A DNA stretch of 64,000 bases from a virus. Lineage: Duplodnaviria > Caudoviricetes. The stretch is from positions 1,224 to 65,223 of IMG/VR virus record IMGVR_UViG_3300046092_000036, one strand, 5' to 3'. The notes under the pieces were generated by a model. It was not told where the DNA came from and did not search any database. It saw only the letters and a list, made by a program, of their open reading frames with translations. Shown in pieces: positions 11 to 64,000 of this stretch (its first letter is position 1; each line of letters starts with the position of its first letter). Made by a program: the position numbers and the translations under genes.

Positions 11-610
11 TTGTTCATGGACTACAAGTCAAACATGAATGTGTATCAAAGCAACATGACTACCATGATCGAGGACTTCTATGCAAACTATGCAGACTTG
101 ATCGACCTAGCGAAACATCATATGGGTGCGTTGTTCAATCCCTATGACTATCCAAGTATCGAGGAGTTGCGTAGCAAGTTCGGATTCCGATTGGTATTCT
201 CTCCGTTGCCTGAGGGTGGTGACTTCCGTTTGGATATTCCCAAAGCGGACATGGATGAATTGGGTGAGCAGTATGAGTCAGCGTTTAATGACAGGCTCAA
301 AGATGCCATGCGTGAACCTTGGGATAAGTTGCATAAGAACCTTGTGCATATCTCAGAAAAGCTAACCGACATAGAGGGCGATGACGATAGCAAGAAGCGG
401 TATCACGATACCCTGATTACGAATGCGCAAGAGTTGTGCGGTTTACTTACACACTTAAACATAACGAAAGACCCATTGCTTGAGAATGCCCGCCGTTCCC
501 TCGAGCTAACAATGTTAGGTGTTGATATCGAGGACATTAAAGAACATGCAGAAGTTCGGCAGTCTGTTAAGTCTAAGGTCGATGACATTCTTAAGAAGTT
601 CGATTGGTAA
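11..610 (+). CDS. DUF3150-like early protein, C-terminal part (gene begins left of the window)
   Basis: YPSIEELRSKFGFRLVFSPLP motif typical of DUF3150-like phage proteins; frame open to the window edge. Confidence 0.6.
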   Translation: MFMDYKSNMNVYQSNMTTMIEDFYANYADLIDLAKHHMGALFNPYDYPSIEELRSKFGFRLVFSPLPEGGDFRLDIPKADMDELGEQYESAFNDRLKDAMREPWDKLHKNLVHISEKLTDIEGDDDSKKRYHDTLITNAQELCGLLTHLNITKDPLLENARRSLELTMLGVDIEDIKEHAEVRQSVKSKVDDILKKFDW

Positions 611-717: not shown

Positions 718-1557
718 ATGACTTACGAGAATATCAAATTAAAAAAGCATGACAAGTTTGGGGAAGGTGAGCAGGAATCAATTATCGACCCTTTCCTTAA
801 AAGTTTCGTAGAGAAGCTAGCACTCAAGTATCCACAATGGACATTCGAGGAAGTGCATAACACGGCTAACCACAACAATAAGACTGTTGAAGCGTATCGT
901 TTTAATGTTGTGGATAAGAGAGAAGTGCTAGGCACAATTGATAAAGAGTATATGACCAATGGTGGGTGGCGGTTTTGTGTAGATAACCATCGTATCAATG
1001 GTGTGCGAGAGCGTGGTCGTGGTATGAAAACAATCCACGAAGATAAAGCACTCAAGCATGTGGGTAAGTTTTTTGGTAAGAAGAATGTAAACGAGAAGTT
1101 TACTGAGGCTAGCACAACAATCATTAATGCCGTAGGTAGCATACACAATCAGAAGAGATGGGACTTATCTCACAAGTGGGATGCGTTGTCTACGCATACA
1201 CAAAAGTTTGTGCATGATAACTATGCGCAATTCGTTAGTTCAATAACGGATACTAAAGCCAATAATCTGCATAGCCTAGAGAAGTTGCCGTCTGCCATAG
1301 CTGAGTTTAGTTCAGTTGAGTCAATGCAAGAAGCGTTGCGTTTAGGAGACGCTTACATTGTGTTCATAGATGGAGTAAACTATTCTATACAAAAGGGCAA
1401 AGACCCTTTAGAAATAAAAACAAGCGAAGAGTTGCCCGACTTTATGCGAAGGGCAGTAGGGCTACTTAAATTAGTTGAAGATAACCAAGTAATAGATGGT
1501 GTCGGTATTCGTGCAAGCGAAACAACTTTCTTGGTAATGCCTAACAATGTTAGCTAA
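718..1557 (+). CDS. hypothetical early protein
   Basis: 279-aa ORF, AAGGA RBS. Confidence 0.8.
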   Translation: MTYENIKLKKHDKFGEGEQESIIDPFLKSFVEKLALKYPQWTFEEVHNTANHNNKTVEAYRFNVVDKREVLGTIDKEYMTNGGWRFCVDNHRINGVRERGRGMKTIHEDKALKHVGKFFGKKNVNEKFTEASTTIINAVGSIHNQKRWDLSHKWDALSTHTQKFVHDNYAQFVSSITDTKANNLHSLEKLPSAIAEFSSVESMQEALRLGDAYIVFIDGVNYSIQKGKDPLEIKTSEELPDFMRRAVGLLKLVEDNQVIDGVGIRASETTFLVMPNNVS

Positions 1558-1566
1558 GGAGCAGAT

Positions 1567-1791
1567 ATGAGTCTATTTAAACGCAAGTTTAATGTAGTTG
1601 AACCTAAACCTAAACCTAAAAGGAAGATGCAAGATATGGCTATTGATACTAACTCTAAGTTCGTATATACAGGCGGTTCTGATGTATTAAAAACCTTTAA
1701 GCGATATGGGTTTGTTCCACCTACTGAGTATCGTGATGATTACTTATTTAAGATTAACAGAGAAGCTAACCAAAGAGAGAATGATGAATGA
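1567..1791 (+). CDS. hypothetical protein
   Basis: 74 aa, AAGGAG RBS. Confidence 0.7.
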   Translation: MSLFKRKFNVVEPKPKPKRKMQDMAIDTNSKFVYTGGSDVLKTFKRYGFVPPTEYRDDYLFKINREANQRENDE

Positions 1792-1975
1792 GGTAACCAA
1801 AAAAGGTAGAGGTAAGGGAGTAAAGCCTGCAATGGTTTACTTTCCCCTCAGATTACCAATAGAAGTAATGAAGTTTTTTGATGCTTACCCTAACAGGAAT
1901 GCAAAGATTAGGGAAGTGTTAGCTAGTTATATTCAACAACAAGGAGAAGTAAATGAAAGCATCAACCAAAAGTAA
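1781..1975 (+). CDS. ribbon-helix-helix-like DNA-binding protein
   Basis: Basic arm KKGRGKG, then VYFPLRLPIEVMKFFDAY..NAKIREVL (beta-helix-helix pattern). Confidence 0.55.
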   Translation: MMNEVTKKGRGKGVKPAMVYFPLRLPIEVMKFFDAYPNRNAKIREVLASYIQQQGEVNESINQK

Positions 1976-2381
1976 AAAGATTAACGCATACATGGAGAGC
2001 AACCCTGATGTAAAGACTAGCGTAGTTGCTAAGAAGTTTGGTGTTAGTGTAGCTAGCATATATCAGCGTAGGTCTAACATGAAATCGGCAGCGACTAAAG
2101 TTGTTAAGCGTGGTCGCCCTCGCCAGATTCCTTCAACACTTGTGCCTAACGCAGTAGCATCAATGCACCTGTATGCAGACGACAAGGTGAATAGCCCGAG
2201 CCACTATAAGGTAGGCGGTATTGAGACTATTGACTTTATCGAAGCGAAGAAATTAGATTACCATTTAGGTAATGTAGTTAAATACATTAGTCGTGCTGAG
2301 TATAAAGATGAGAAGCTAGAGAACCTTAAGAAGGCGCAATGGTATCTTAATCGTGCGGTTGCAAACCTAAGCAAGACCTAA
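1953..2381 (+). CDS. HTH + AT-hook + DUF3310 (SaV-like) protein
   Basis: N-terminal VAKKFGVSVASIY HTH, KRGRPR, C-terminal VNSPSHY..GGIETID..GNVVKYISRA..K..ENLKKAQWYL. Confidence 0.75.
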   Translation: MKASTKSKKINAYMESNPDVKTSVVAKKFGVSVASIYQRRSNMKSAATKVVKRGRPRQIPSTLVPNAVASMHLYADDKVNSPSHYKVGGIETIDFIEAKKLDYHLGNVVKYISRAEYKDEKLENLKKAQWYLNRAVANLSKT

Positions 2382-2389
2382 CAATGTTA

Positions 2390-2522
2390 GGGGCATTTGA
2401 TTACGATAGAACCTATTAGCCTTGTAGATGCGAACGATTTTATTATCAGCTAGTTGCCCCGAGAATTCTTACGCTAGCTGAGTCCAAAATCTGAGGGGGG
2501 CAGATAATCTACATATCCCCCC
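2390..2522 (+). ncRNA. candidate structured, pseudoknotted intergenic element
   Basis: Four crossing complementary pairs (see findings); no family recognised. Confidence 0.35.
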
Positions 2523-2586: not shown

Positions 2587-2907
2587 ATGGCATCTACTCC
2601 CGAAAAGAAAGTTAAAGATAAAGTTGTTAAGCTAATCAAGGCTTACGGCATTTATTATTTTTTCCCTGCAACACATGGATACGGCAGAAGCGGTGTGCCC
2701 GATATCATATGCTGTGCTAAGGGTAAGTTCGTTGCCATAGAATGCAAAGCAGGCAACAATAAGCCTACTGCGTTACAAGAAAAAGAAATGGCAGACATCC
2801 GTAAAGCGGGTGGATATGCCTATGTAGTAAACGAGGAGAGCCTAACATTGTTAGGTGCAACCTTAAGGAGCTTACTTGACGAGGAGGATGGCGATGGCAG
2901 ATGTTGA
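2587..2907 (+). CDS. VRR-NUC nuclease / Holliday junction resolvase-like
   Basis: PEKKVK..GVPDII....FVAIECKA...PTALQ PD-(D/E)XK motif. Confidence 0.9.
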   Translation: MASTPEKKVKDKVVKLIKAYGIYYFFPATHGYGRSGVPDIICCAKGKFVAIECKAGNNKPTALQEKEMADIRKAGGYAYVVNEESLTLLGATLRSLLDEEDGDGRC

Positions 2908-12249: not shown

Positions 12250-12507
12250 ATGAGTTACGGCTATAGTGCCAAAACTATTCAGTTAAACAAAAGAGCCGAT
12301 AGTAGTAGGCTCGGAGTTGCGTTGGGTAGGTCGGCTATCAAACTAGGCATATCAGTTGCAGATATAGCTGGTACGCTTAAAGTTAGCCGTCAAACTATCT
12401 ATAACTGGTTTATAGGTTCTTACAACCCTAAAGATACGTACACCAAGTCAATAACCAGCTTATTGAATAGTTTTAACAAGCACATTAAAGAAACAAATTT
12501 AAAGTAA
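12250..12507 (+). CDS. Cro/XRE-type HTH protein
   Basis: ISVADIAGTLKVSRQTIYNWFIG. Confidence 0.8.
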   Translation: MSYGYSAKTIQLNKRADSSRLGVALGRSAIKLGISVADIAGTLKVSRQTIYNWFIGSYNPKDTYTKSITSLLNSFNKHIKETNLK

Positions 12508-44825: not shown

Positions 44826-44828
44826 TAT

Positions 44829-45071: not shown

Positions 45072-45316
45072 CTCGCAAGAGAGGCAGCCTTTCTGGTTGG
45101 TCTGCCTTTTTCATCTTTCATTGGGCCTGGCATACCAGACATACGTGCGCAAAATGACTTTTTACGAGCGCCACCTTCGGGCTGTGGAGCTTTTAGATTC
45201 GAGCCAGTAGCCGCATTATACTTAGCACGACCTTTGGCGGTAAGCCCAGCACCCTTAGATACAGGCAACTTTTCACCACGACCAACCGCAAGAGAGGGAC
45301 CTTTTTTCTTAGCCAT
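45059..45316 (-). CDS. small basic protein
   Basis: GLTAKGR, RKKSFCARM, SLARWKC. Confidence 0.7.
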   Translation of the reverse strand: MAKKKGPSLAVGRGEKLPVSKGAGLTAKGRAKYNAATGSNLKAPQPEGGARKKSFCARMSGMPGPMKDEKGRPTRKAASLARWKC

Positions 45317-49715: not shown

Positions 49716-49899
49716 CAGAGTTCTCCAGGTTTTTTGCAAGGTCTGTTAAATATAACTCGGCAGTGAGCAGTCCTCGAACCTCACCACAAAGTGCGCGATA
49801 CTCCGCGTAATCCTTAGCTGCGCCGCTGGAAACTGCTTCAGCTATTTGGTTGCGCTTATCTCTGTATTGCATAAGCAATACTTCAAGCGTTCTATCCAT
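49708..49899 (-). CDS. small hypothetical protein
   Basis: DYAEYR.LCG.VRGL. Confidence 0.7.
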   Translation of the reverse strand: MDRTLEVLLMQYRDKRNQIAEAVSSGAAKDYAEYRALCGEVRGLLTAELYLTDLAKNLENSDD

Positions 49900-55031: not shown

Positions 55032-55418
55032 CTATGGGTTGGAATTAGATTTCTTCTTCTTTTTAAGTATCTTTTTCTTTTCCTTATGTTCCTCATAGTG
55101 AACAATCCTGTGGCAGTTTGCGCACAATGGGATACATTTTTTAATTTCCTCCATTGCTTCTTTGTACTTGCCTTGCTGTGCTAGGAGGTTTACCGACTTG
55201 TGGTTTGTGCGGTCTACGTGGTGAAAGTCTATTACTGCTGAGTGGGAGAACCCACAGTTTATACATTTGATCGTACTTTTAAACTTTGCCCATTCTTTGC
55301 GTTTCTCTCGCTTTAACTCTGCTGCTCGCTTCCTAACCTTCTCGCCGTTCTTAACGTAGTAGTCACGGCTGTACTCCGCATGCTTGAGCTTTTTTACGCT
55401 CGCGTCTTTGTATGGCAT
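55032..55418 (-). CDS. HNH endonuclease
   Basis: CINCG, DFHHVD, KCIPLCANCHRIVH. Confidence 0.88.
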   Translation of the reverse strand: MPYKDASVKKLKHAEYSRDYYVKNGEKVRKRAAELKREKRKEWAKFKSTIKCINCGFSHSAVIDFHHVDRTNHKSVNLLAQQGKYKEAMEEIKKCIPLCANCHRIVHYEEHKEKKKILKKKKKSNSNP

Positions 55419-55857
55419 CAGGATGCACCTTATATTTCCAGTAGATTGCGTTCTTGTACGACCACGGTTGCCCTGGAGTATATATCTTAAATCCCGCATT
55501 AATCAATGAGTTAGCGCTTGCGGGGTTATTCGTAGTGTCAGTAATACACCAGTTCCACCCGAGTTTTCTTGCTTGCTTAACTCTTGCCTGTATCAACCTT
55601 TTTTGCAACCCGTGGCCTGTATAGCCGTCGAGCACACCTGCTCTACATAAGTAACCTGTGTCTGTCCACTTGGTCGAACGAACTAGTCCTGCAAAACCTA
55701 CAGGCTTTCCATCTTCTGCATACGCAATCCACCAATGCCCCCGATCTGGTTTGTATAGGTTATCACTAGGCAATATCTTTTTTTGCAGATAACAAATTAG
55801 TGTTACCAGCGAAGGGTTGCGTAGGTCAGCTTTTTTTAACGTGAAGTCCATGTACAT
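55363..55857 (-). CDS. GNAT acetyltransferase
   Basis: GYLCRAGV..YTGHGLQKRLI, NPASANSLINAGF. Confidence 0.85.
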   Translation of the reverse strand: MYMDFTLKKADLRNPSLVTLICYLQKKILPSDNLYKPDRGHWWIAYAEDGKPVGFAGLVRSTKWTDTGYLCRAGVLDGYTGHGLQKRLIQARVKQARKLGWNWCITDTTNNPASANSLINAGFKIYTPGQPWSYKNAIYWKYKVHPDAIQRRERKKAQACGVQP

Positions 55858-56242
55858 ACCCTACCCCCCTAGTGTTTCAATTATTTTACAAAAAATATAT
55901 ACCCCCCTGGGGGGTATTGAAATAAAAAAGGTATGGGGGGTGTTCTTAAGGTACGTCTTGGCGGAAGTCTGTGGATATTTGAGTAGGGGGAGGGGGGTTA
56001 AGTACTTAATGCCGATGTTATATATACGCTACTAACCAGATATACCTTAAGCACCTGGTGACGTGTTAGCACGAGAAAAGTGAGGGCAAATAAAAAATAT
56101 TTTTTAAAACGATGTATCTCTTGTGCAAACTAGTGTGTATAGGCGGACTGATACTTCTTTTTTTAAAAATGGGGTGTAGGGGTCGCTTGGTTTTTGAATG
56201 CCTAACATTGTTAGGGTAGGGGTAATTATTGTTTCTGATAAC

Positions 56243-56272
56243 TTGCTTTTCGTATCACAAATAGAGTATAAT
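56243..56272 (+). promoter_or_regulatory. early promoter 1
   Basis: TTGCTT-N18-TATAAT. Confidence 0.65.
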
Positions 56273-56334
56273 AGAACCAAGAGAAAAGAAAAACATTCTC
56301 GATCACTTTATAAACCAACAATGGAGTAATCAAT

Positions 56335-56847
56335 ATGCAAGATTTTATCAGTAACCTAGAAGAGCTAATCAACAATGCCCGTGCTAAGGTATTCGATCAG
56401 TATGAGTCAACATATGGCGCAAATGTTGAGTACGCTAAACTACTCAACCAAAAATGGGACGGTTTCGATTGGTTTGAATTGAAACATACCGACACCTCCG
56501 ACGAAGGCAAGGCGGTGAAAGGTGAGGGTGATCGGTTTCGTAAGGGTATCAAGGATTGGCATTCTAACCCTAGTACAGCATGGAAACAGATCAGAGAGCA
56601 TGCCCGTACTGATCGTTATGGTAAGCAAGTAGTGGCAACAACCGAGGGTGAAACAACCGAGGGTGAAACATCAGGCGACGCAAAGCATAACCGCTCACCT
56701 GAATTACGCAACATTGAGGAGTTGACCGTGTTGTTTAAATTCAACCGTCGCCAAGAGTCATTGAGCGATAACCTCAAGGATTGTCAACGCAACATTATCA
56801 AAGCCCTCGAATCAATGGGTGTTGATATTGGAATGATCGGGGACTAA
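56335..56847 (+). CDS. first early protein, paralog A
   Basis: Shares YGANVEYAK, FDWF, HSNPS, KHNRSPELRN, FNRRQESLS with 57788..58315. Confidence 0.85.
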   Translation: MQDFISNLEELINNARAKVFDQYESTYGANVEYAKLLNQKWDGFDWFELKHTDTSDEGKAVKGEGDRFRKGIKDWHSNPSTAWKQIREHARTDRYGKQVVATTEGETTEGETSGDAKHNRSPELRNIEELTVLFKFNRRQESLSDNLKDCQRNIIKALESMGVDIGMIGD

Positions 56848-56855
56848 CCCGCTTT

Positions 56856-56886
56856 ACCTACCCTAACATTGTTAGGGTAGGTTTTT
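56856..56886 (+). terminator. extended palindrome (27 bp) around the motif plus T-run
   Basis: ACCTACCCTAACA-T-TGTTAGGGTAGGT-TTTT. Confidence 0.45.
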
Positions 56887-56906
56887 AACCCTAATGGAGT
56901 AATCAT

Positions 56907-57044
56907 ATGGTAATCAAATACAAATCCCGTTTATACAAATTGCTTTCACTTATGCCAATACATGTAAGCCCGTACCAAATGAATTTTGTAAGATACGGCT
57001 CAAGTTATACAGATTATGTTGCAGTCACTTGGCGAAAATACTAA
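56907..57044 (+). CDS. 45-aa hypothetical protein
   Basis: ATGGAGTAATCA RBS context identical to that of 56335. Confidence 0.6.
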   Translation: MVIKYKSRLYKLLSLMPIHVSPYQMNFVRYGSSYTDYVAVTWRKY

Positions 57045-57051
57045 CCTCACC

Positions 57052-57077
57052 AAATCCCCGAAAGGGGATTTTCTTTT
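57052..57077 (+). terminator. intrinsic terminator
   Basis: AAATCCCC-GAAA-GGGGATTT-TCTTTT. Confidence 0.85.
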
Positions 57078-57265
57078 GCCCATGCCCTAACATTGTTAGG
57101 GTTTTTTTGTTTCCATCATTTTTAGGTTTTTTGGAAATGATAGTTCTCAGGAGGGTGGAAGCCCAAAGCCTCGCATCCAAGGTTTTGTCATGCTGGGAAT
57201 GACAGTTCTCAGAGGAGTGGACGCCCATAGTGCCCCTAACAATGTTAGGCTCGGCCCAGAAAAGG

Positions 57266-57625
57266 TTTTCTAATATTGCATCCTTTAAAATCAAGGACTT
57301 ACACCTATTATTAGAAAAGCAAAACAAGAATCTAATAATACAAAACCCTTTAGAATCAAGGACTTACAAGCGTTTTTGGGGTATTATTAGAAAAGTGCAG
57401 AAACTTGTGAGTGAAGTTCTAAAGAGAGCCTTCAGCGCAGTGCAAAATCTTACAATGGCAGAAAAACTCTCTGGGGGTATATAATTTTTTAAAAAGTCTA
57501 ATAATCTAATAATACCTAATTTTCTCCTCGCAAAGCCTTACACCTATTGAGTTTTACATTATTAGAAAATACATTAGAAATTCCCTCACTTTTCTAATAT
57601 TACCCTTATTTTCTAATATTACCCT
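57266..57625. repeat. AT-rich TCTAATA/TATTAGA repeat field with two IHF-consensus sites
   Basis: About ten CTAATA/TATTAG copies in both orientations; AATCAAGGACTTA at 57289 and 57354. Confidence 0.7.
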
Positions 57626-57680
57626 TTGCCCTAACAATGTTAGGCTCGTTCCGAAATATTTTTATTTCTTTCCAAAAAAC

Positions 57681-57709
57681 TTGATCTGTCTCTTATATTG
57701 TGTTATACT
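57681..57709 (+). promoter_or_regulatory. early promoter 2
   Basis: TTGATC-N17-TATACT, extended TG, A-tract upstream. Confidence 0.85.
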
Positions 57710-57787
57710 TTAGGTATAGAATCAAAAAGCGTTAAAGAGTTAGTTGGGTTCTCTATTTAACCTAACATTGTTATGGAGTAGTCAAAA

Positions 57788-58315
57788 ATGTTTAACTTAT
57801 CAAATCAAGGTGTAGATGTAGATTCAATCGTTGCAGAAAAGCGCCAAGGCGCAATCGAGGCTCAAACCTCTGCTTATGGTGCTAATGTGGAATACGCAAA
57901 AGCCCTTAATCTGAAGTTCGACCAATTCGATTGGTTTGCAGTAAGCCACACCGATTCTTCGGATGAGGGCAAAGCAGTCCGCAAGGAAAAGACAATTTTC
58001 TTTGATGGCTTGAAAGCGGGCAAACACTCAAACCCTTCTAAGGTTTGGAAAGATGTGCGTGATTATGGGCTTGAGGCTCGCTATGGCAAACCCGTTGTAT
58101 CTACTGAAGAAGGTGCAGAAGGTGAAGTTCCCGAAGGCTCGGATGACGCAAAGCACAATCGTTCCCCTGAGTTGCGTAACCTTGAGGAATTGACAACCCT
58201 CTATAAGTTCAACCGCAGACAAGAATCTTTGTCCCCAAAACTTGCTAAGGTGCAACAAAAAATAAGTGAAGCCCTTGCAGAAATGGGGGTTGATATCGGG
58301 ATGATTGCAGACTAA
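57788..58315 (+). CDS. early protein, paralog B
   Basis: Paralog of 56335..56847. Confidence 0.85.
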   Translation: MFNLSNQGVDVDSIVAEKRQGAIEAQTSAYGANVEYAKALNLKFDQFDWFAVSHTDSSDEGKAVRKEKTIFFDGLKAGKHSNPSKVWKDVRDYGLEARYGKPVVSTEEGAEGEVPEGSDDAKHNRSPELRNLEELTTLYKFNRRQESLSPKLAKVQQKISEALAEMGVDIGMIAD

Positions 58316-58333
58316 CCCCTGCCCTCCCCGTTC

Positions 58334-58362
58334 ATACCCTGCCAAGTGCAGGGTATTTTTTT
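58334..58362 (+). terminator. intrinsic terminator
   Basis: ATACCCTGC-CAAGT-GCAGGGTAT-TTTTTT. Confidence 0.85.
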
Positions 58363-58393
58363 GTCCATGCCCTAACAATGTTAGGTCTTTCCT

Positions 58394-58429
58394 TTTCCGC
58401 CATTTCCGCCATTTCCGCCATTTCCGCCA
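58394..58429. repeat. 9-bp tandem repeat TTTCCGCCA x4
   Basis: Read directly. Confidence 0.9.
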
Positions 58430-58580
58430 TTTTTGCCGTTAGGTTTTGCCGATTGTCATTTTGGGAAATGACAGTTCCTAGAGGGGTGGTAGCCCGAGGG
58501 AATCCCCCCAAAAAGGGGGGCAGAGCTTTGCTCTGGCACGAAAGCGCATCGGAATGAGGGTCGATTTCTCGCCAAAAAAC

Positions 58581-58609
58581 TTGATCTGTCCAATAAACTG
58601 TGTTATAAT
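58581..58609 (+). promoter_or_regulatory. early promoter 3
   Basis: TTGATC-N17-TATAAT, extended TG. Confidence 0.88.
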
Positions 58610-58732
58610 ATAAGATATATATGAGAATAAAGATTCGCCCTCATTTTATATTTTGTTCAACCCCTAACATTGTTAGGTTTCCACAATCAGAGCTTGCTCT
58701 GTTTCGTGGGTTTATTTGTGGAGGTAGTCAGT

Positions 58733-58810
58733 ATGAAAGAGATATGGGACATTTTGCTTGGTATTGCTCTAGTAGTCTTTATGGTTAATTTGATATGGGG
58801 GGTAATGTAA
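58733..58810 (+). CDS. 25-aa TM peptide
   Basis: GGAGG RBS; MKEIWDILLGIALVVFMVNLIWGVM. Confidence 0.55.
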   Translation: MKEIWDILLGIALVVFMVNLIWGVM

Positions 58811-58812
58811 TC

Positions 58813-59091
58813 ATGGGTGCATTCAAACAGTTATCTATTGACTTTGGCAAGGGTTTTGAGCCAGCTAGCCCTAACAATGTTAGCCCTACTCAAGAATTGG
58901 TAGCAAGGTGGGAACAGTATGCAAACGACAACCGCCTCAACCCTAAGACCAAGAAGTACAAAGAGAATCAGCATGCGTTCTTATGGGGTATTGGCTGTGC
59001 CTTACAGGAGAAAACACCTATGTTGCTATCCCTATGTATGGTATCAGGGCGTGATATCGCCTCACTAAGAGAACGCACTCAACCAAGATAA
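58813..59091 (+). CDS. hypothetical early protein
   Basis: GGGGG RBS. Confidence 0.7.
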   Translation: MGAFKQLSIDFGKGFEPASPNNVSPTQELVARWEQYANDNRLNPKTKKYKENQHAFLWGIGCALQEKTPMLLSLCMVSGRDIASLRERTQPR

Positions 59092-59104
59092 GAAGGAGCT
59101 AACA

Positions 59105-59308
59105 ATGTTATATGGCATGGACTGTGAATGTGGTTTAGAAATACCGATTGGCAGACTCGACTTAGGGTATACGACATGCCTTAAGTGTGGCGACAAAGTG
59201 GCAAAAGGTGTAAAGCATATTGTGCAAATCCCATATTCCAAGGGTGCGTATCAATATATCCACAACCCCCAAGACTTGTGCTTTACCAACCCAAAGAGGA
59301 CAACATGA
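59105..59308 (+). CDS. small Zn-finger protein
   Basis: CECG..I..GRL.LGY.TCL.CG; AAGGAG RBS. Confidence 0.75.
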   Translation: MLYGMDCECGLEIPIGRLDLGYTTCLKCGDKVAKGVKHIVQIPYSKGAYQYIHNPQDLCFTNPKRTT

Positions 59309-59559
59309 CCGAAGAGCAGATGCTACGCAAACTAAGGCAACGAGAAAGGGAGTATCCATATTGGAATGCGTGTCGGGTTATGTATGAACATTTAGAGCAT
59401 GAGCAATACCTACGCAACAGGGCAGAAGATGCTTATTTGCGATGGCTCAGGGATAACAACCCCGACAGTATTAAGTATAAGTATCCGAACAACCCCAACG
59501 ACCATGAGAAGTTTATGTGGATTGAAGGGTATTTAGACAACCGAAGGGGGAGCAGATGA
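59305..59559 (+). CDS. hypothetical protein
   Basis: GAGGA RBS, ATGA overlap. Confidence 0.7.
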   Translation: MTEEQMLRKLRQREREYPYWNACRVMYEHLEHEQYLRNRAEDAYLRWLRDNNPDSIKYKYPNNPNDHEKFMWIEGYLDNRRGSR

Positions 59560-59876
59560 AGATCAATGTAGACGGATACCTAAACTCGGAGTGGGAGAAA
59601 TACTGCGAAGAGCAGGGGTGCGACCTAACGGAACACGACCTAACATTGTTAGGTGAGCATCTTAAACAGGTGGAAGAAGCAAAGGCTAAGGCAGAGGAAT
59701 ACCAAACGCTATACGACATTGCCCTAGTTAAAAGTTATGCCTACTGTGAGGAATACAACATTGCAACAGGCAGAGTAGAAGAACGGGGTGGTGCAAGACT
59801 ACTCAAGCAGGGTTACATTGATGGCTTTCTTGCAGGGTTCGCACACAAAATGGGGGGTGGACATGGTGGTGATTAA
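59556..59876 (+). CDS. hypothetical protein
   Basis: Coupled ORF. Confidence 0.7.
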   Translation: MKINVDGYLNSEWEKYCEEQGCDLTEHDLTLLGEHLKQVEEAKAKAEEYQTLYDIALVKSYAYCEEYNIATGRVEERGGARLLKQGYIDGFLAGFAHKMGGGHGGD

Positions 59877-60039
59877 GTTATATCAAAAGCCAGATAAGCC
59901 AGAGTTCTATGCCTATGTGCGTAGTGGTAAGTGGGGATTGCTCGTGACTTACCCAATAAGTAAGCCCGACAGTAAAAGAAGTGCAAAGTGGATAGACCCT
60001 AACATTGTTAGGATTGATTGGATAAAGGAGTTTGTATGA
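59863..60039 (+). CDS. hypothetical protein
   Basis: GGGGG/GGA RBS. Confidence 0.65.
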   Translation: MVVIKLYQKPDKPEFYAYVRSGKWGLLVTYPISKPDSKRSAKWIDPNIVRIDWIKEFV

Positions 60040-60146
60040 CTAGATTTGAAAAGATGTGCATGGGTGCGGTAGTAGTTTGTTTGTGTTTGTTTTTACTAAG
60101 TATTCCGTTTGTTTTAGTAGCCTCTTATTACAGGGGGTGCGCATGA
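60036..60146 (+). CDS. 36-aa TM peptide
   Basis: AAGGAG RBS; MTRFEKMCMGAVVVCLCLFLLSIPFVLVASYYRGCA; ATGA overlaps at both ends. Confidence 0.65.
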   Translation: MTRFEKMCMGAVVVCLCLFLLSIPFVLVASYYRGCA

Positions 60147-60325
60147 AAGAGTATTACAAAGGGCAACGCATTAGTGAGTTGCTAACGCAGATAGATGAGT
60201 TGAGCAAAGCGTTGGAAGATAACCACTATGAGTATGAGAACGAAACTCAGGCATTAAGAGCAGTAGAGGCAAGGACTACGCTAGCAATAGCGAAGGCTAA
60301 ATTAACCGCATTACAAGGAGAATAG
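60143..60325 (+). CDS. coiled-coil hypothetical protein
   Basis: GGGGG RBS. Confidence 0.65.
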   Translation: MKEYYKGQRISELLTQIDELSKALEDNHYEYENETQALRAVEARTTLAIAKAKLTALQGE

Positions 60326-60326
60326 T

Positions 60327-60554
60327 ATGAAAGATGGATTGTTTACACAGAACCCTGAGTATCACGAAAATGGTGACACGATTGAAGATGTGATTCTAGA
60401 TGCACAAGATGCGTTCTATACATTTGACGAAGAGCAAGGCAATATCTTTGATGATGATGACCGCATGCTCTTTTGCGAAGGATACAACCAAGGTGTTGAG
60501 GCAATGCGTAAGCAAGTCCTAACATTGTTAGGTCGCATGGCAGAGGAGGAGTAA
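60327..60554 (+). CDS. acidic hypothetical protein
   Basis: AAGGAG RBS. Confidence 0.7.
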   Translation: MKDGLFTQNPEYHENGDTIEDVILDAQDAFYTFDEEQGNIFDDDDRMLFCEGYNQGVEAMRKQVLTLLGRMAEEE

Positions 60555-61096
60555 TGGGATACCGAAGCCAATTAGCTGGATGTATCAGCGTAGATGTAGT
60601 GCGTAAAGAAGATGAGCAAGGCAGTCATTACTTTGATTACGACAAGGCTAAGTTCAAGGAGATGATTGGGTTCATCAAGTTGTCTAGGTTCTATGAGTTA
60701 TGGCAAATAAGCAACACCTCAGATGCGGATAGCTTTGGGTGGCAGAATGGCAAGTTCATCTTGTATGGCAACGATTGGAAGTGGTATCCCGACTACGATG
60801 ATGTGAAAGCATGGAACGAGTTATGGGAGCAGATGCAAGATATCGAGGGTATATCAGGCTACTTTGTGCGAGTGGGTGAGGAGAACGATGACATACAGGA
60901 GATGGAGTTTGGGGATGACCCATGCTACGACCACTTCCATGCGTTTACTGCCCTTAGCTTTGATGCAGAAGATTACTTAGGAAAGAGAGATACAGATGAA
61001 GCAGAGACCAAGAAAGAAGATACCGCTACAACGCAACCCGATTGTGCGGGCGCTAATCATGCAACCGAAACGCAACAACGGGAAGCACAAGCCTAA
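60554..61096 (+). CDS. acidic hypothetical protein
   Basis: MGYRS, WKWYPDY.DV, FVRVGEE.DD. Confidence 0.75.
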   Translation: MGYRSQLAGCISVDVVRKEDEQGSHYFDYDKAKFKEMIGFIKLSRFYELWQISNTSDADSFGWQNGKFILYGNDWKWYPDYDDVKAWNELWEQMQDIEGISGYFVRVGEENDDIQEMEFGDDPCYDHFHAFTALSFDAEDYLGKRDTDEAETKKEDTATTQPDCAGANHATETQQREAQA

Positions 61097-61163
61097 CATT
61101 GTTAGGACTAAGAGAGTAGGTATAGAAGATTAAACGCAGCGCTACTAAACGAGGAGAGTAATT

Positions 61164-62093
61164 ATGTACGGACACCATAGGAATTCGGGGATTCATGCCC
61201 TTGCAAACTACAACGAGGCATTCCACAAGTGGGAGAATACCAAGCCCATTCGTGGTAGGGGTGTAGATGTAAGACCGCTTGGCAACAGACGACAGGCTGA
61301 CCAATACAAGATTGAGTTGCTACCCGAGGGGGGTGTGGCTTGTGTTATGTATAGGACAGCAGTAGTAACCTTCTTTACAGACGGTGATATCCGCATCATG
61401 AATGATGATTGGAATAGTGTATCGACTTGCAACTTCATTGACGAGGTTCTATGGAATATAAGCAGTCGGATATACAACAACGATTTGTATATCAAGACTA
61501 GGCAAGGTGAGTTTGCGCTAGGCAAAGAGGGTTTATGGCTACGCATGAATGGGGAGGGAAACCTTGAGGTTAAGACTGACAGGCTAAAACCCAAGTATGT
61601 GCATGCGATTGACCGCAAGAAGGCTAACAATGTTAGGGCGCAATACAAGCCGTTCCTTGATTATGTTAGTCGGATGAGCAGACTCAAAGGCAACGACCCT
61701 TACCCTGCATCAGAGATGGTTCGGATGTTCCCTCATGCTATCTACAAAGATGTGCCTGATATGGGTGTGGAGTTAAGCGATCGTGCTTACGACAAGTGGA
61801 CTGATGCAATTACGAACCTATTTACCCTGATGAATTCAAAGGGTGAGAGTCAGCATGACGATTTCTACAAGGCTTTACTGCTACTAGCAAAGTCATATGG
61901 CAACCATAAGTACCATGACCCTGAGGGCTATGTCGTGACAGAGAAGAAGATCAAGGTAGCCCTTGACGATTTGATTGTGGGATACCACCGAGATGATGTG
62001 CTTGTGCCTAAGCAAGTGCCACTAGGTGTAGCTCGCAGAGATAGCAATGGCAAATACTTTAGAGACGGATGGCGCAGATTACATGAGGCATAA
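61164..62093 (+). CDS. hypothetical early protein
   Basis: 309 aa, GAGGAG RBS. Confidence 0.8.
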   Translation: MYGHHRNSGIHALANYNEAFHKWENTKPIRGRGVDVRPLGNRRQADQYKIELLPEGGVACVMYRTAVVTFFTDGDIRIMNDDWNSVSTCNFIDEVLWNISSRIYNNDLYIKTRQGEFALGKEGLWLRMNGEGNLEVKTDRLKPKYVHAIDRKKANNVRAQYKPFLDYVSRMSRLKGNDPYPASEMVRMFPHAIYKDVPDMGVELSDRAYDKWTDAITNLFTLMNSKGESQHDDFYKALLLLAKSYGNHKYHDPEGYVVTEKKIKVALDDLIVGYHRDDVLVPKQVPLGVARRDSNGKYFRDGWRRLHEA

Positions 62094-62138
62094 CAATGTT
62101 AGCTCGTTCCGAATTATTTTATTTTCTAGGCAGAATCC

Positions 62139-62167
62139 TTGATCTGTCTAGTATTATGTGTTATAAT
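62139..62167 (+). promoter_or_regulatory. early promoter 4
   Basis: TTGATC-N17-TATAAT, extended TG. Confidence 0.88.
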
Positions 62168-62266
62168 ATAGTATATATAAAATAATAAATGTTAAAGTTT
62201 TCAACCCCCTAACAATGTTAGGGCTAACGCAGTAGATGTAATCAACCACAACAGGAGAAACAAAGC

Positions 62267-63334
62267 ATGGCTGAAATCAATTTCGGTAAAACAGTAACAC
62301 TAACGCAAGCATCAAACATCATTCTTTCAACCCCGATGAATCGCTACTTCTTAAGGGGTGAGCCAGGAATTGGCAAATCGTCTCTACTTAAGTCGCTATC
62401 AGCAAAGCTCCCTAACCACGAGGTCTCTTACATTGATGTGCCTAACATGGACTTGGGTGATATCGCAATGCCCGTCATTGATCGGGAGACAAAGACTACT
62501 GCCTACTACCCTAACAGTAGATTCAAATTGCATCTGGGTAAACCCGTCATAACAATGTTAGATGAGTACACGAAAGGTGCTGACCCAATTAAGAATATGT
62601 TGCACCCCATGTTGGAGGTGGCAAACCCTCGGCTCGGTGATATTGCTTTGCACCCCGAATCAATTACTTTTCTGACAGGCAATCTATCTAGTGATGGTGT
62701 AGGCGATTCCCTGAAAGCTCATAGTATGAATCGTATTATTCCACTACATGTAAGAAAGCCTGATGCTGAGGAGTGGATGGCATGGGCAATCGAGAATGAT
62801 ATTTCGCCTGAGATTATTGCGTGGGTTAGACAATTCCCTCATGCAATGGCTAGCTACTTAGATGAAGGGCAAGCAGACAACCCGTATATCTTCAATCCAA
62901 AGAAGATGCAGATGGCATTTGTATCGCCTCGCTCCCTCGAGAGAGTATCTAACATTGTTAGGGTGCGGTCACAGTTGGATGCCGATAGCTTGATATGTGC
63001 AATGAGTGGTGCGGTGGGTGAATCAGCTAGTCGTGATATGCAAGCATACATAGAGTTCTCAGATCAGCTTCCTACATGGGAGTCGGTGATTGCTAATCCT
63101 AAGACTGCCCTAGTTCCCGAGAGTGCGGGTGCATGCGCAATCATTGTGTTCGGTGCTATCAGTAAGATGGATAAGCAGAGTATGCCTAAGTTCATGGATT
63201 ACATTGAACGATTCCAACCCGAGTGGCAAGCATGCTTTGCTATCAACATTGCTAAGTCACCAAGCAAACAGTCTATTGCATTCTCTAGTAGCAAGTTTGC
63301 TGATTGGGTTCAGAAGAACGAGGACTTACTGTAA
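62267..63334 (+). CDS. MoxR-like AAA+ ATPase
   Basis: GEPGIGKS, ITMLDE, TGN, NR, SPRS. Confidence 0.88.
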   Translation: MAEINFGKTVTLTQASNIILSTPMNRYFLRGEPGIGKSSLLKSLSAKLPNHEVSYIDVPNMDLGDIAMPVIDRETKTTAYYPNSRFKLHLGKPVITMLDEYTKGADPIKNMLHPMLEVANPRLGDIALHPESITFLTGNLSSDGVGDSLKAHSMNRIIPLHVRKPDAEEWMAWAIENDISPEIIAWVRQFPHAMASYLDEGQADNPYIFNPKKMQMAFVSPRSLERVSNIVRVRSQLDADSLICAMSGAVGESASRDMQAYIEFSDQLPTWESVIANPKTALVPESAGACAIIVFGAISKMDKQSMPKFMDYIERFQPEWQACFAINIAKSPSKQSIAFSSSKFADWVQKNEDLL

Positions 63335-63504
63335 TGAGTGAGCCAAAAAAACTAGGTAGACCACCTCTATCAAGAGAGGGTCGTATTAGTAGAGAAAGAA
63401 TAAGGCAAATCCAAGAGCATGCGCTAGGCAAGTTGCGTAGGTTGATGTATGCCAAAGGTTATAAGTTCGAGGATTTTTTCGATGATTCAAAAAAGAAAGG
63501 CTAA
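63334..63504 (+). CDS. 56-aa sigma70 region-4.2-like mini-protein
   Basis: ISRERIRQIQEHALGKLR vs RpoD VTRERIRQIEAKALRKLR; TAATG coupling. Confidence 0.7.
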   Translation: MSEPKKLGRPPLSREGRISRERIRQIQEHALGKLRRLMYAKGYKFEDFFDDSKKKG

Positions 63505-63506
63505 CA

Positions 63507-64000
63507 ATGTTAGGTGATATTCAAGTAGTGAAAGACAAAGAAGAACGCAGATTGAGCAAGATTAAGATTTCAATTATGCGTAATCCTAAGTTCGCATTAT
63601 GGTCAGGCTTGATGACTGTCGGTAAGACAAGCGTAGATGACAACATCCCAACCGCATGCACTAATGGTAGAGATGAACGCTATGGTCGTGAGTTCATTAA
63701 GACTCTAGATGATAAAGAGTTGGCATTCGTAGTGTTACATGAAACATTGCACAAGGCTTATCGTCATCTCTTTACATGGCGCAGACTTAATGATGAGAAC
63801 CCTCATCTTGCAAACCTAGCGTGTGACTATGTAATCAACCTTCAGCTAAAGGATATGGACAAGGATGAATTACTAATCGCCATGCCTCAGCGTAATGGTA
63901 AGGCAATAGGTGCAGTCGATGAACGATTCCGTGGCATGAACGCTAAACAAATCTTTGACATACTCAAGGAGGAGGATGAGGGTGGAGGAGGAGGTGGTGG
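63507..64000 (+). CDS. DUF2201/VWA-associated metallopeptidase-like protein (3' truncated)
   Basis: IPTACTNG, FVVLHETLH, NLACDYVIN; follows the AAA ATPase. Confidence 0.85.
   Translation, partial: MLGDIQVVKDKEERRLSKIKISIMRNPKFALWSGLMTVGKTSVDDNIPTACTNGRDERYGREFIKTLDDKELAFVVLHETLHKAYRHLFTWRRLNDENPHLANLACDYVINLQLKDMDKDELLIAMPQRNGKAIGAVDERFRGMNAKQIFDILKEEDEGGGGGG

What the first reader, a model, noticed from the sequence alone, without database searches (positions are those of the whole stretch)
56202..63513. A 13-bp palindrome tiles the whole early region (24 copies) and appears absent elsewhere
Seen: CTAACAWTGTTAG occurs 20 times perfectly plus 4 one-mismatch copies, at 56.2-63.5 kb and 0.5-2.85 kb, mostly 100-1000 bp apart. 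I saw none in the ~53 kb from 2.9 to 56.2 kb (eye scan). Ten copies sit inside ORFs in two different frames (LTMLG, LTLLG, ITMLD in the AAA Walker B; PNNVS, PNIVR, SNIVR, ANNVR), which points to selection on the DNA rather than the protein. Other copies flank early promoters on both sides. Known analogues are dispersed 13-bp sites such as mycobacteriophage L5 stoperators and E. coli matS (GTGACRNYGTCAC, matching 9 of 13 positions). Inference: a dimeric protein coats the ~12-kb early (possibly first-injected) domain to silence it at the early-to-late switch, protect or pull in incoming DNA, or organise it. Candidate binders are the RHH-like 1781..1975, the HTH proteins 1953 and 12250, the duplicated first gene, or a host factor.
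Basis: partly seen in the sequence, partly recalled or inferred. Interest (0 to 1): 0.92.

Follow-up and report, generated by a model that had tools for sequence, protein, structure and literature searches.

The report
Palindrome array marking phage early genes
A 13-17 base palindrome is repeated about 26 times across only the early-gene block of an uncultured 65-kb phage and its many relatives, and it most likely serves as docking sites for a still unidentified DNA-binding protein that controls early genes.

Summary
CTAACAWTGTTAG occurs 20 times perfectly and 4 times with one mismatch in the window (0 expected). The whole 65,223-bp record holds 26 copies, all within about 11.9 kb.

The array is family-wide. 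116 of 138 relatives picked by a neighbouring ATPase gene carry it, always between the start of rightward transcription and the DNA polymerase gene.

Selection acts on the DNA. Intragenic copies sit at orthologous codons in proteins only 20-65% identical. One conserved peptide (SNIVR) uses the motif's codons in 16 of 20 lineages of this motif class but in 1 of 12 others.

The site is strand-symmetric and is really a 15-17 bp palindrome. Copies sit near +50 (37 of 68) and -75 (19 of 68) of predicted sigma-70 early promoters.

Lineages differ in half-site (CTAACA, ATAACA, GTAACA, CTGACA) and spacing (1-3 bp). Some have lost the array.

Best reading: an operator array for a two-fold symmetric DNA-binding factor controlling the early domain. 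The binder is not identified. An Arc-like ribbon-helix-helix protein (1781-1975) and an 85-aa helix-turn-helix protein (12250-12507) are candidates with mixed evidence. A 309-aa candidate was refuted. The "first-injected" idea cannot be tested.

The parts
56202..56214 (.). Site 1 (perfect, centre T). First copy of the array. It lies about 29 bp upstream of a by-eye -35/-10 pair (TTGCTT-18-TATAAT) ahead of the first early gene at 56335.
   Evidence: the promoter was read by eye only and is not listed
56863..56875 (.). Site 2 (perfect). It lies 16 bp after the stop of the 170-aa first gene. Flanks extend it to an 11-bp stem followed by a T run, so it looks like a terminator.
   Evidence: -16.6 kcal/mol as RNA
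57087..57099 (.). Site 3 (perfect). Stem 57084-57102 followed by TTTTTTT, so it looks like a terminator.
57236..57248 (.). Site 4 (perfect), in the non-coding stretch holding the 37-nt repeats.
57631..57643 (.). Site 5 (perfect). Its centre is at about -78 of promoter 57681-57709. It is followed by the conserved GCTCGTTCCGAA and an AT-rich stretch.
57762..57774 (.). Site 6 (one mismatch, ...TTAT). Its centre is at about +52 of promoter 57681-57709. It abuts the ribosome-binding site of the 175-aa gene (57788).
58372..58384 (.). Site 7 (perfect), just after terminator-like hairpin 58334-58356.
58664..58676 (.). Site 8 (perfect). Its centre is at about +54 of promoter 58581-58609.
58871..58883 (.). 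Site 9 (perfect), inside ORF 58795-59091.
59099..59111 (.). Site 10 (one mismatch). Its own ATG (59105) is the start of the 67-aa ORF, with GAAGGAG just upstream.
59640..59652 (.). Site 11 (perfect), inside ORF 59556-59876.
59999..60011 (.). Site 12 (perfect), at the 3' end of ORF 59788-60039.
60519..60531 (.). Site 13 (perfect), at the 3' end of ORF 60327-60554 and 23 nt before the next start codon.
61093..61105 (.). Site 14 (perfect). Its TAA (61094-61096) is the stop codon of ORF 60554-61096.
61624..61636 (.). Site 15 (perfect), inside the 309-aa gene, encoding A-N-N-V-R. A perfect motif sits at the aligned position in 26 of 31 orthologues, including some at 20-25% identity.
62090..62102 (.). 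Site 16 (one mismatch, ATAACA...). Its TAA is the stop codon of the 309-aa gene. Its centre is at about -78 of promoter 62139-62167.
62209..62221 (.). Site 17 (perfect). Its centre is at about +41 of promoter 62139-62167, in the leader of the AAA ATPase gene.
62549..62561 (.). Site 18 (one mismatch), inside the AAA gene. It is kept only in close relatives (9 of 32 orthologues).
62949..62961 (.). Site 19 (perfect), inside the AAA gene, encoding S-N-I-V-R. It is perfect in 26 of 34 orthologues. Codon use depends on the lineage's motif class.
63501..63513 (.). Site 20 (perfect). Its TAA closes ORF 63304-63504 and its ATG (63507) opens the DUF2201 gene.
506..518 (.). Site 23 (perfect), inside the 285-aa gene, encoding L-T-M-L-G. 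It is perfect in 33 of 39 orthologues. Sites 21 and 22 lie outside the window, at genome 500-512 and 794-806.
1541..1553 (.). Site 24 (perfect), at the 3' end of the 279-aa gene and 14 nt before the next start codon. It is perfect in 10 of 10 orthologues covering it.
2378..2390 (.). Site 25 (perfect). Its TAA (2379-2381) is the stop codon of the DUF3310 gene.
2842..2854 (.). Site 26 (perfect). Last copy of the array, at the 3' end of the Hjc/VRR-NUC-like gene, just before the 157-aa gene and DNA polymerase.
57681..57709 (+). Sigma-70-type early promoter TTGATC-17-TATACT with TG upstream of the -10.
   Evidence: repeat D7
58581..58609 (+). Sigma-70-type early promoter TTGATC-17-TATAAT.
62139..62167 (+). 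Sigma-70-type early promoter TTGATC-17-TATAAT, ahead of the AAA gene.
1781..1975 (+). Candidate binder 1: a 64-aa Arc/CopG-like ribbon-helix-helix protein with a basic KKGRGKGVKP arm, encoded inside the array.
   Evidence: There is no Pfam hit.
12250..12507 (+). Candidate binder 2: an 85-aa helix-turn-helix protein encoded between the 295-aa gene and the primase-helicase gene.

Best explanation
The palindromes are an array of binding sites on double-stranded DNA. Each site is really 15-17 bp, A-C-CTAACA-N-TGTTAG-G-T. A sequence-specific, two-fold symmetric protein binds them and acts on the phage's early transcription domain.

Sites bracket the host-type (sigma-70) early promoters at about -75 and +50. 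That geometry suits repression by looping or by blocking the polymerase. Further sites every ~0.6 kb inside and between early genes act as extra anchors or roadblocks, so the whole ~12-kb early block can be shut down or organised as one unit.

The array stops just before the polymerase operon.

What is shown:
- the sites, their confinement to one domain and their family-wide conservation;
- selection at the DNA level;
- strand symmetry;
- the association with promoters.

What is inferred:
- that a protein binds the sites;
- that the effect is repression or shut-off;
- who the binder is.

My odds on the binder are: phage-encoded about 0.55 (the ribbon-helix-helix protein at 1781-1975 first, the HTH at 12250-12507 second), host factor about 0.25, something else about 0.2.
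For: Confinement to one domain:
- All 26 copies lie in ~11.9 kb of 65.2 kb, and nothing with up to 2 mismatches lies elsewhere.
- In 5 of 5 complete relatives the 7-22 copies are almost all confined to a domain of roughly 10-13 kb (G005 has two further copies 5 and 9 kb downstream).
- In 80 relatives picked by the AAA gene alone, density is 0.8-1.9 sites per kb from -6 to +6 kb and close to 0 beyond.
- In 44 loci that reach the polymerase gene, all sites but 1 lie upstream of it.

Selection on the DNA:
- Perfect motifs sit at orthologous codons: 26 of 34, 25 of 39, 33 of 39 and 26 of 31 orthologues at four sites. Those loci had been picked by the motif itself.
- In 32 dereplicated lineages picked without regard to the motif, the peptide SNIV(R/K) is kept in most of the 32 lineages (S in all 32; N, I and V in 29-31). 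The motif's codons appear in 16 of 20 lineages of this motif class against 1 of 12 others (Fisher p = 1.3e-4).

Symmetry (413 sites):
- Centre A:T is 80:78 in intragenic sites and 39:33 in intergenic sites.
- One-sided outer variants are mirror images of each other (AG 33, CT 27).
- Flanks are fixed as C/G at +-1 and A/T at +-2, and are at chance beyond that.

Promoters:
- 68 strong sigma-70-like sites lie inside arrays and 8 outside.
- 37 of 68 have a site centred at +20 to +70, 19 of 68 at -100 to -55, and 7 have both.
- Three promoters in this window follow the same pattern.

A trans factor:
- Whole genomes switch together to ATAACA, GTAACA or CTGACA half-sites, or to spacings of 2 or 3 bp.

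Candidate binders:
- The ORF at 1781-1975 aligns as strand-helix-helix. It gives weak profile hits to chain 2q2k_A, which I recall as pSK41 ParR (E 0.012), and to a CopG-family regulator (E 0.45).
- The HTH at 12250 is present in 13 of 13 motif-bearing genomes where it could be found. It is cleanly missing between its two neighbour genes in three motif-less genomes.
Against: No binding was measured, and no protein tracks the motif.

- On FastTree trees of 11 early families, motif class changes 3-12 times, close to the number of non-standard lineages on each tree, so none follows it.
- The HTH's recognition helix, VSR(Q/A/M)T(I/V)YNWF, is the same in CTAACA and CTGACA lineages. The gene is also present in G010, which has no site in 20.9 kb.
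- The DNA-facing strand residues of the ribbon-helix-helix protein differ (Y,P,R / C,S,R / H,N,R) among lineages with the identical motif. The protein is intact in the motif-less L187, L258 and L245.
- Spacings of 1, 2 and 3 bp, sometimes mixed in one genome (L016, L155, L165), are awkward for a rigid dimer.
- 72 of 195 A-centred sites use the motif's own ATG to open an ORF of 50 aa or more, and 23 of 94 intergenic sites are followed by a T run. This leaves room for an RNA-level role.
- 41% of sites are inside genes, away from any promoter.
- Only 7 of 68 promoters have both flanking sites.
Confidence: 0.5

Rival explanations
1. Host-factor sites. The palindrome is the box of a host transcription factor or nucleoid protein. 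The phage recruits it to time or boost early expression. Motif variants and losses reflect host switches.
For: No phage protein follows the motif's presence or class. The array was lost independently in several lineages (the L189 clade, L187, L258/L245). Close relatives (AAA 88% identical) differ in spacing.
Against: None of 401 genomes of the one phylum I could sample holds more than 4 copies, about the same as the reversed control pattern. The Sericytochromatia MAG that carries a related 61.7-kb contig has 1 copy of the shorter core pattern (TAACA-N1-2-TGTTA) in 3.7 Mb. Several half-site and spacing classes in otherwise similar phages look more like co-diversification with a phage gene. The host is unknown, so this test is weak.
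Confidence: 0.2
2. RNA hairpin. In early transcripts the element folds as a 5-7 bp stem with a 3-nt loop. It serves as a site for a translational repressor (as with T4 RegA, from recall), a processing or stability signal, or a terminator.
For: All genes of the domain are on one strand. 72 of 195 A-centred sites place the start codon in the loop or stem. 37 of 68 promoters have a site near +50, which is in the leader. 23 of 94 intergenic sites carry a T run. Two copies here fold at -10 to -17 kcal/mol.
Against: The sites are strand-symmetric in centre base, variants and flanks. Variants that would keep a wobble pair are rare (TG 1, GT 0, against AG 33 and CT 27). There is no variable stem extension. 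A bare intragenic copy folds at -3.2 kcal/mol, with z = -0.45 against shuffles. The first site lies upstream of the first promoter as read by eye. No Rfam family matches.
Confidence: 0.1
3. Extruded DNA hairpins. The palindromes form hairpins read by a polymerase or primase, as with the hairpin early promoters of phage N4 (5-7 bp stem, 3-nt loop; from recall) or priming signals.
For: The geometry fits: a 5-7 bp stem with a loop of 3-5 nt that tolerates spacings of 1-3. The nearest isolates to the AAA ATPase are N4-like phages, at about 25% identity.
Against: No T7-type RNA polymerase domain was found, although the control search also rang nowhere. The 2,124-aa virion protein matches PLxRFG/DarB-like proteins, not a polymerase. 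Orientation is 1:1 while every gene reads one way. Good sigma-70 promoters are already present. Many sites lie deep inside genes.
Confidence: 0.06
4. Domain organiser. A protein binds the sites to condense, tether, partition or protect the early block, as with MatP-matS, ParR or KorB-like complexes, or as a ratchet or shield for entering DNA. Transcription control would be secondary.
For: The ~12-kb domain has sharp edges and sites about every 0.6 kb. MatP reads matS through a ribbon-helix-helix domain (passage in PMC12756933). The best PDB profile hit of the RHH candidate is 2q2k_A, which I recall as a plasmid ParR bound to its centromere.
Against: No ParB domain is present in the genome, and that control search worked. 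No partition ATPase was seen among the 48 proteins scanned with Pfam. Genome ends are unknown, so entry order cannot be argued. The promoter-linked positions point to transcription.
Confidence: 0.12

Closest known systems
Stoperators of Cluster A mycobacteriophages (L5 and relatives)
   Same: Both have tens of 13-bp sites for one regulator, at a promoter and along transcription units. Motifs differ between related phages. Repressors with identical HTH domains can have distinct motifs (abstract of PMC9283540; passages of PMC6550527).
   Different: Stoperators are asymmetric, mostly in one orientation relative to transcription, and spread over the genome of temperate phages. They are read by a monomeric repressor. 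Here the sites are palindromic, confined to one ~12-kb domain, and 41% lie inside genes. No integrase or immunity repressor was seen among the 48 proteins scanned with Pfam.
KorB and its OB operators on IncP plasmids (recalled; only a search listing seen)
   Same: Both have about a dozen copies of a 13-bp perfect palindrome with a free central base, acting on many promoters, some from a distance.
   Different: KorB is a ParB-family protein, and no ParB domain is present in this genome. The site sequences are unrelated. OB sites are spread over the whole plasmid.
MatP-matS of enterobacterial Ter macrodomains
   Same: Both are 13-bp palindromes restricted to one chromosomal domain. MatP binds through a ribbon-helix-helix domain (passage), and a ribbon-helix-helix protein is encoded inside this array.
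   Different: MatP is a host protein acting on an 800-kb domain in chromosome segregation (recalled). The four discriminating positions differ. Here the sites sit at promoters and gene junctions of a phage.
gal operon OE/OI looping by GalR (recalled)
   Same: Both have two operators, upstream and downstream of the promoter, about 113-135 bp apart centre to centre.
   Different: The gal operon has a single pair at one operon, a LacI-family repressor and another sequence. Only 7 of 68 promoters here have both sites.
Hairpin early promoters of phage N4 (recalled)
   Same: Both are short inverted repeats with a 3-nt loop in the early region, and the AAA ATPase here is distantly N4-like.
   Different: N4 has three such promoters and a virion RNA polymerase. 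Here there are 26 orientation-free copies and no polymerase was detected.
Operator of the MazE-like antitoxin MtvA on plasmid pPAD8
   Same: Its EMSA-mapped palindrome TAACATTGTTA is identical to the inner 11 bp of this motif (passages of PMC11826091).
   Different: It is a single autoregulatory site on a Pseudomonas plasmid. No MazE/AbrB-type protein was found here. The match may be coincidence.

Membership tests
Stoperator system (Cluster A mycobacteriophages) | 13-bp asymmetric site | tested here: not met
   The site is a perfect palindrome, symmetric in centre, variants and flanks.
Stoperator system (Cluster A mycobacteriophages) | Sites mostly in one orientation relative to transcription and spread over the genome | tested here: not met
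   Centre base is 13:13 here and 80:78 / 39:33 in relatives. All copies lie in ~12 kb.
Stoperator system (Cluster A mycobacteriophages) | Cognate immunity repressor that co-varies with the motif | tested here: inconclusive
   No protein tracks motif class. One clade that lost the motif also lost the HTH gene.
KorB-OB (ParB-family global regulator) | ParB N-terminal domain protein | tested here: not met
   PF02195 gives no match in the genome. The control search matched 11 of 14 genomes.
MatP-matS | Consensus GTGACRNYGTCAC | tested here: not met
MatP-matS | MatP-type binder (four-helix bundle + RHH + coiled coil) | tested here: inconclusive
   A 64-aa RHH-like protein is present, but without the other domains. 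The host is unknown.
N4-type hairpin promoters | Virion or phage single-subunit RNA polymerase | tested here: inconclusive
   PF00940 gives no match, but the control also rang nowhere. The giant virion protein matches PLxRFG/DarB-like proteins.
N4-type hairpin promoters | Fixed orientation upstream of transcribed genes | tested here: not met
   Orientation is 1:1, and 41% of sites are inside genes.
Ribbon-helix-helix (Arc/CopG/MetJ) fold, for ORF 1781-1975 | N-terminal strand followed by two helices | tested here: met
   The AF2 model has an extended residue 1-26, then helices 27-34 and 39-53, with pLDDT 91-93 in that core. The alignment shows ...SLRLPxxVxDYF...KMREVL....
Ribbon-helix-helix (Arc/CopG/MetJ) fold, for ORF 1781-1975 | Significant sequence or fold match to a solved RHH protein | tested here: inconclusive
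   Profile against PDB gives 2q2k_A at E 0.012 and a CopG-family regulator at E 0.45. Foldseek best E is 6. No Pfam hit.
Known RNA families (Rfam 15) | Covariance-model match | tested here: not met
   0 matches at E up to 1 in 55500-64000.

The most novel reading that the evidence does not exclude
A so far undescribed 'specificity code' in a large family of uncultured, apparently virulent freshwater phages. A small phage DNA-binding protein (most likely the Arc-like protein with its basic arm) and 20-25 palindromic sites co-diversify in half-site and spacing. Each lineage can then silence or mark its own early block, and that of close kin that superinfect. This would be an immunity-like system without lysogeny, written partly into the codons of conserved genes.
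Probability: 0.22. Interest if true: 0.88.

Novelty: new variant of a known kind. Interest (0 to 1): 0.8.

Why it matters
Dispersed operator arrays are known from a few temperate phages and plasmids. Here one appears in a widespread uncultured phage family: at least 444 relatives in IMG/VR encode the neighbouring ATPase.

Three properties make it a ready-made natural experiment:
- sharp domain limits;
- sites held inside conserved genes by synonymous-codon choice;
- repeated switches of half-site and spacing between close relatives.

It gives a direct handle on how such phages switch off early genes and on how a DNA-binding specificity and tens of targets evolve together. It also shows how much regulatory signal can be hidden in coding sequence. 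For annotation, the motif marks the early region and promoters of these genomes.

Tried and rejected
**309-aa protein (61164-62093) as binder.** It looked universal: 75 of 80 loci had it, the five exceptions being four with under 300 bp of upstream sequence and the motif-less L189. Its AF2 model is confident (pLDDT 90.8) with no PDB fold match (best E 0.05) and only viral hypothetical proteins in the Atlas. Wider sampling refuted it. The motif-less clade keeps a homologue at +4 kb, and motif-bearing L249, L255 and L271 have none.

**157-aa protein (2876-3349).** It is absent from motif-less L187 but also from motif-bearing L198.

**Duplicated first gene (170 and 175 aa).** It is absent from L145 and G007, which have arrays.

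**Covariation of any early family with motif class.** None was found (FastTree only).

**Cultured relatives by terminase.** DSL-LC04, HTVC023P, HTVC027P, Pag-Yong1 and 023Pt_psg01 carry no array: 0-1 core hits each. No near-identical phage record exists.

**Literature.** The 13-mer in three forms, and the inner 11-mer in two, were searched in the full-text library. The 13-mer is in no paper. Supplements were not seen and could hold motif tables.

**Host search.** One genome-contig scan found a single related contig in a MAG. It has only a weak TAACC-NN-GGTTA variant. 401 genomes of that MAG's phylum show no enrichment. Other phyla were not searched.

**Homodimer prediction for the RHH candidate.** No verdict. 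This is not evidence either way.

**Foldseek of the RHH model.** Nothing significant.

**Limits.**
- Loci L005-L123 were picked by the motif itself.
- ORF calls are simple longest-ORF heuristics.
- The promoter scan is a consensus match.

Full report
**Observation.** CTAACAWTGTTAG occurs 20 times perfectly in the window, and 24 times if one mismatch is allowed. Shuffled controls give 0.00 and 0.16. All copies lie at 506-2854 and 56202-63513.

The window is bases 1224-65223 of a 65,223-bp virus record rated 100% complete. The missing 1,223 bases hold two more copies. The total is 21 perfect plus 5 one-mismatch copies, and nothing with up to 2 mismatches lies elsewhere.

The record's two ends split one gene. 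The DUF2201 metallopeptidase/VWA domains fall on either side of the break, and relatives have a single 404-409-aa ORF there. The 26 copies therefore occupy one contiguous ~11.9-kb stretch of a circular map.

The centre base is A in 13 copies and T in 13. The 'two frames' remark is explained by TAA and TAG sharing the third frame.

**Genome context.** Rightward genes run from 56335 across the record break to about 15.6 kb. Leftward genes (15.7-55.9 kb) are structural:
- terminase at 52384-53913;
- portal at 49899-52373;
- a 2,124-aa polyvalent protein with an LPD39 domain and a PLxRFG/DarB-like C-terminus.

The array covers only the first half of the rightward block. That half holds small ORFs without family matches, then an AAA_5 ATPase, DUF2201, DUF3310 and an Hjc/VRR-NUC-like nuclease. 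It ends ~0.5 kb before DNA polymerase A (3346-5184). A helicase and a primase-helicase follow.

No close GenBank phage exists. The ATPase is ~25% identical to those of N4-like phages. The terminase is 49-57% identical to those of DSL-LC04, HTVC023P-type pelagiphages and Planktothrix phage Pag-Yong1. None of these has the array.

**Family-wide conservation.** A scan of IMG/VR for the 15-mer hit at least 119 contigs, many with 5-24 copies and G+C of 41-56%. Five complete relatives have 7-22 copies each, all within 10-13 kb apart from two outlying copies in G005.

To avoid picking by the motif, I collected relatives through the ATPase alone. That search found 444, of which the best 80 were kept. 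It found a further 244 around a motif-less member, again keeping the best 80.
- Of the 138 loci examined, 116 have at least 3 core sites.
- Site density is 0.8-1.9 per kb from -6 to +6 kb of the ATPase start and close to zero beyond.
- In 44 loci reaching the polymerase gene, every site but one lies upstream of it. The last is typically ~450 bp before it.

**Selection is on the DNA.** Intragenic copies sit at the same aligned codons in orthologues of 20-65% identity: 26 of 34, 25 of 39, 33 of 39 and 26 of 31 are perfect (those loci were picked by the motif).

In 32 lineages dereplicated at 90% ATPase identity and picked without regard to the motif, the ATPase peptide S-N-I-V-(R/K) is kept in most of the 32 lineages (S in all 32; N, I and V in 29-31).
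- Lineages using CTAACA with spacing 1 write it as TCT AAC ATT GTT AG. It is perfect in 16 of 20.
- Lineages with another motif class, or none, use AGC/AGT, AAT, ATC, GTG and AAG. It is perfect in 1 of 12.
- Fisher p = 1.3e-4.

**Anatomy of the site (413 sites in 32 lineages).**
- 169 sites are inside ORFs, 150 at ORF boundaries and 94 intergenic.
- Centre A:T is 80:78 inside genes and 39:33 between genes. It is 76:27 at boundaries, where the motif's ATG often serves as a start codon: 72 of 195 A-centred sites open an ORF of 50 aa or more, and the motif's TAA closes one in 55 of 345.
- One-sided outer variants are mirror images (AG 33, CT 27). Variants that would keep a wobble pair are rare (TG 1, GT 0).
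- Flanks prefer C/G at +-1 (72% complementary in intergenic sites) and A/T at +-2. Beyond that, complementarity is at chance.

The unit is therefore a fixed 15-17 bp palindrome, not a generic stem. As RNA, a bare intragenic copy folds at -3.2 kcal/mol, no better than shuffles. Two copies with extended flanks and T runs look like terminators. No Rfam family matches.

**Relation to promoters.** Three sigma-70-type promoters (TTGATC-17-TATAAT/TATACT) lie at 57681, 58581 and 62139.
- Two of them have a site centred near -78.
- All three have a site at +41 to +54.

Across the 32 lineages, 68 strong promoter-like sites lie inside arrays and 8 outside.
- 37 of 68 have a site centred at +20 to +70. 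A site density of 1 per ~617 bp would give about 8% by chance.
- 19 of 68 have one at -100 to -55, and 7 have both.

A conserved promoter follows, or lies near, the last site. It presumably starts the polymerase operon.

**Lineage variants.**
- Whole genomes use CTAACA-NN-TGTTAG (for example L131 and L134, whose ATPase is 88% identical to ours), ATAACA-N-TGTTAT, GTAACA-N-TGTTAC, CTGACA-NN-TGTCAG or CTAACA-NNN-TGTTAG.
- A few genomes mix two forms.
- In the one spacing-2 lineage examined in detail (L131), all 7 sites lie at or near gene boundaries and none in the ATPase gene; across the 32 lineages only 6 of 169 intragenic sites are spacing 2.
- Some lineages have no array: the L189 clade including the complete 66-kb G012, G010/L187, and L258/L245.

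Concerted change of all sites in a genome points to one trans-acting reader with lineage-specific specificity.

- The 309-aa protein upstream of the ATPase first looked perfectly correlated, but wider sampling refuted it.
- The 157-aa protein and the duplicated first gene fail on presence.

The 85-aa HTH protein (12250-12507; HTH_23/HTH_3) gives mixed evidence.
- For: it is present in 13 motif-bearing genomes. It is missing between its two conserved neighbours in G012 and G014 (gaps of 28 and 30 bp) and also in G013, where a 241-bp gap remains.
- Against: it is present in motif-less G010, and its recognition helix does not change with half-site class.
- In stoperator systems, repressors with identical HTH domains can have distinct motifs (passage of PMC6550527). 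The unchanged helix is therefore weak evidence against it.

The ORF at 1781-1975 also gives mixed evidence.
- For: it aligns as an Arc/CopG-like ribbon-helix-helix with a conserved basic arm, (K)KGRGxGKKP. It gives weak profile hits to 2q2k_A (E 0.012; I recall this entry as pSK41 ParR with centromere DNA) and to a CopG-family regulator (E 0.45).
- For, from recall: proteins of this fold are known to read adjacent 7-8 bp repeats in direct or inverted order. Examples are MetJ, the omega repressor and ParR. MatP reads matS this way (passage).
- For: its arm is deleted in the motif-less L189 clade.
- Against: its DNA-facing strand residues vary within one motif class, and the protein is intact in other motif-less lineages.

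No ParB domain is present. A host regulon was not seen in 401 genomes of the only phylum I could sample.

**Verdict.** The feature is real, strongly non-random, conserved across a large uncultured phage family and maintained at the DNA level.

The best-supported mechanism is an operator array for a symmetric DNA-binding factor governing the early domain. Promoter-flanking sites would repress, and intragenic sites would act as auxiliary anchors or roadblocks.

It works like stoperators or KorB operators but meets the defining features of neither. The binder, the sign of the effect and any role in DNA entry or organisation remain untested.

Noticed in passing
window 5178-5672 (+): A 164-aa protein just after DNA polymerase carries a domain like the C-terminal domain of the RNA polymerase alpha subunit (PF03118, E 9e-10, above cut-off). 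It could bind or mimic the host polymerase at UP elements.
   Followed up: no
window 57132-57168, 57194-57230, 58463-58499: A second repeat family of ~37 nt (TGGAAATGATAGTTCTCAGGAGGGTGG.AGCCCA.AG) occurs three times in early non-coding stretches. Similar units recur in relatives between close pairs of palindromes. Function unknown.
   Followed up: partly
window 58394-58432: A tandem repeat TTTCCGCCA x4.3 lies right after site 58372, upstream of the promoter at 58581.
   Followed up: no
window 63507-64000 plus genome 1-726: The record's ends cut the DUF2201 metallopeptidase/VWA gene, which is one 404-409-aa ORF in relatives. The 123- and 127-bp 'terminal repeats' of two relatives, at least one of them breaking inside a gene, show circular assemblies rather than physical ends.
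   Followed up: yes
window 61164-62093 (+): The 309-aa protein family has a confident AF2 model (pLDDT 90.8) with no PDB fold match, and evolves fast (25-35% identity between lineages). It has a homologue at a different position, about +4 kb from the ATPase gene, in the motif-less clade.
   Followed up: partly
window 56335-56847 and 57788-58315: The first two early genes are paralogues, with ~75% nucleotide identity over their 3' parts (repeats D3 and D6). They are absent from some relatives.
   Followed up: partly
window 59105-59308 (+): By eye, the 67-aa ORF starting at the motif's ATG has a CxC...CxxC pattern reminiscent of TraR/DksA zinc fingers. It has no Pfam or PHROG hit. It is found in 46 of 80 relatives.
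   Followed up: no
window 15679-22053 (-): A 2,124-aa polyvalent virion protein has an LPD39 domain and a C-terminal ~800 aa like the PLxRFG/DarB-like proteins of ~60-kb podophages such as Skulduggery, Parlo, PEp14 and LASTA.
   Followed up: partly
window 55363-55857 (-): A GNAT acetyltransferase gene lies at the end of the leftward block, next to the divergent control region.
   Followed up: no
L206 (contig of 61,705 bp in a Sericytochromatia MAG): The only hit in 185,579 species genomes is a phage-sized contig binned in a MAG, with an ATPase 55% identical. It is probably a phage genome rather than host DNA, and it carries only a weak TAACC-NN-GGTTA variant.
   Followed up: partly
window 44578-45210 (+): A 210-aa ORF on the + strand lies inside the leftward structural block. 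It is conserved at 47-58% in three relatives and absent from motif-less G012. It may be a real opposite-strand gene or an overlap artefact.
   Followed up: no
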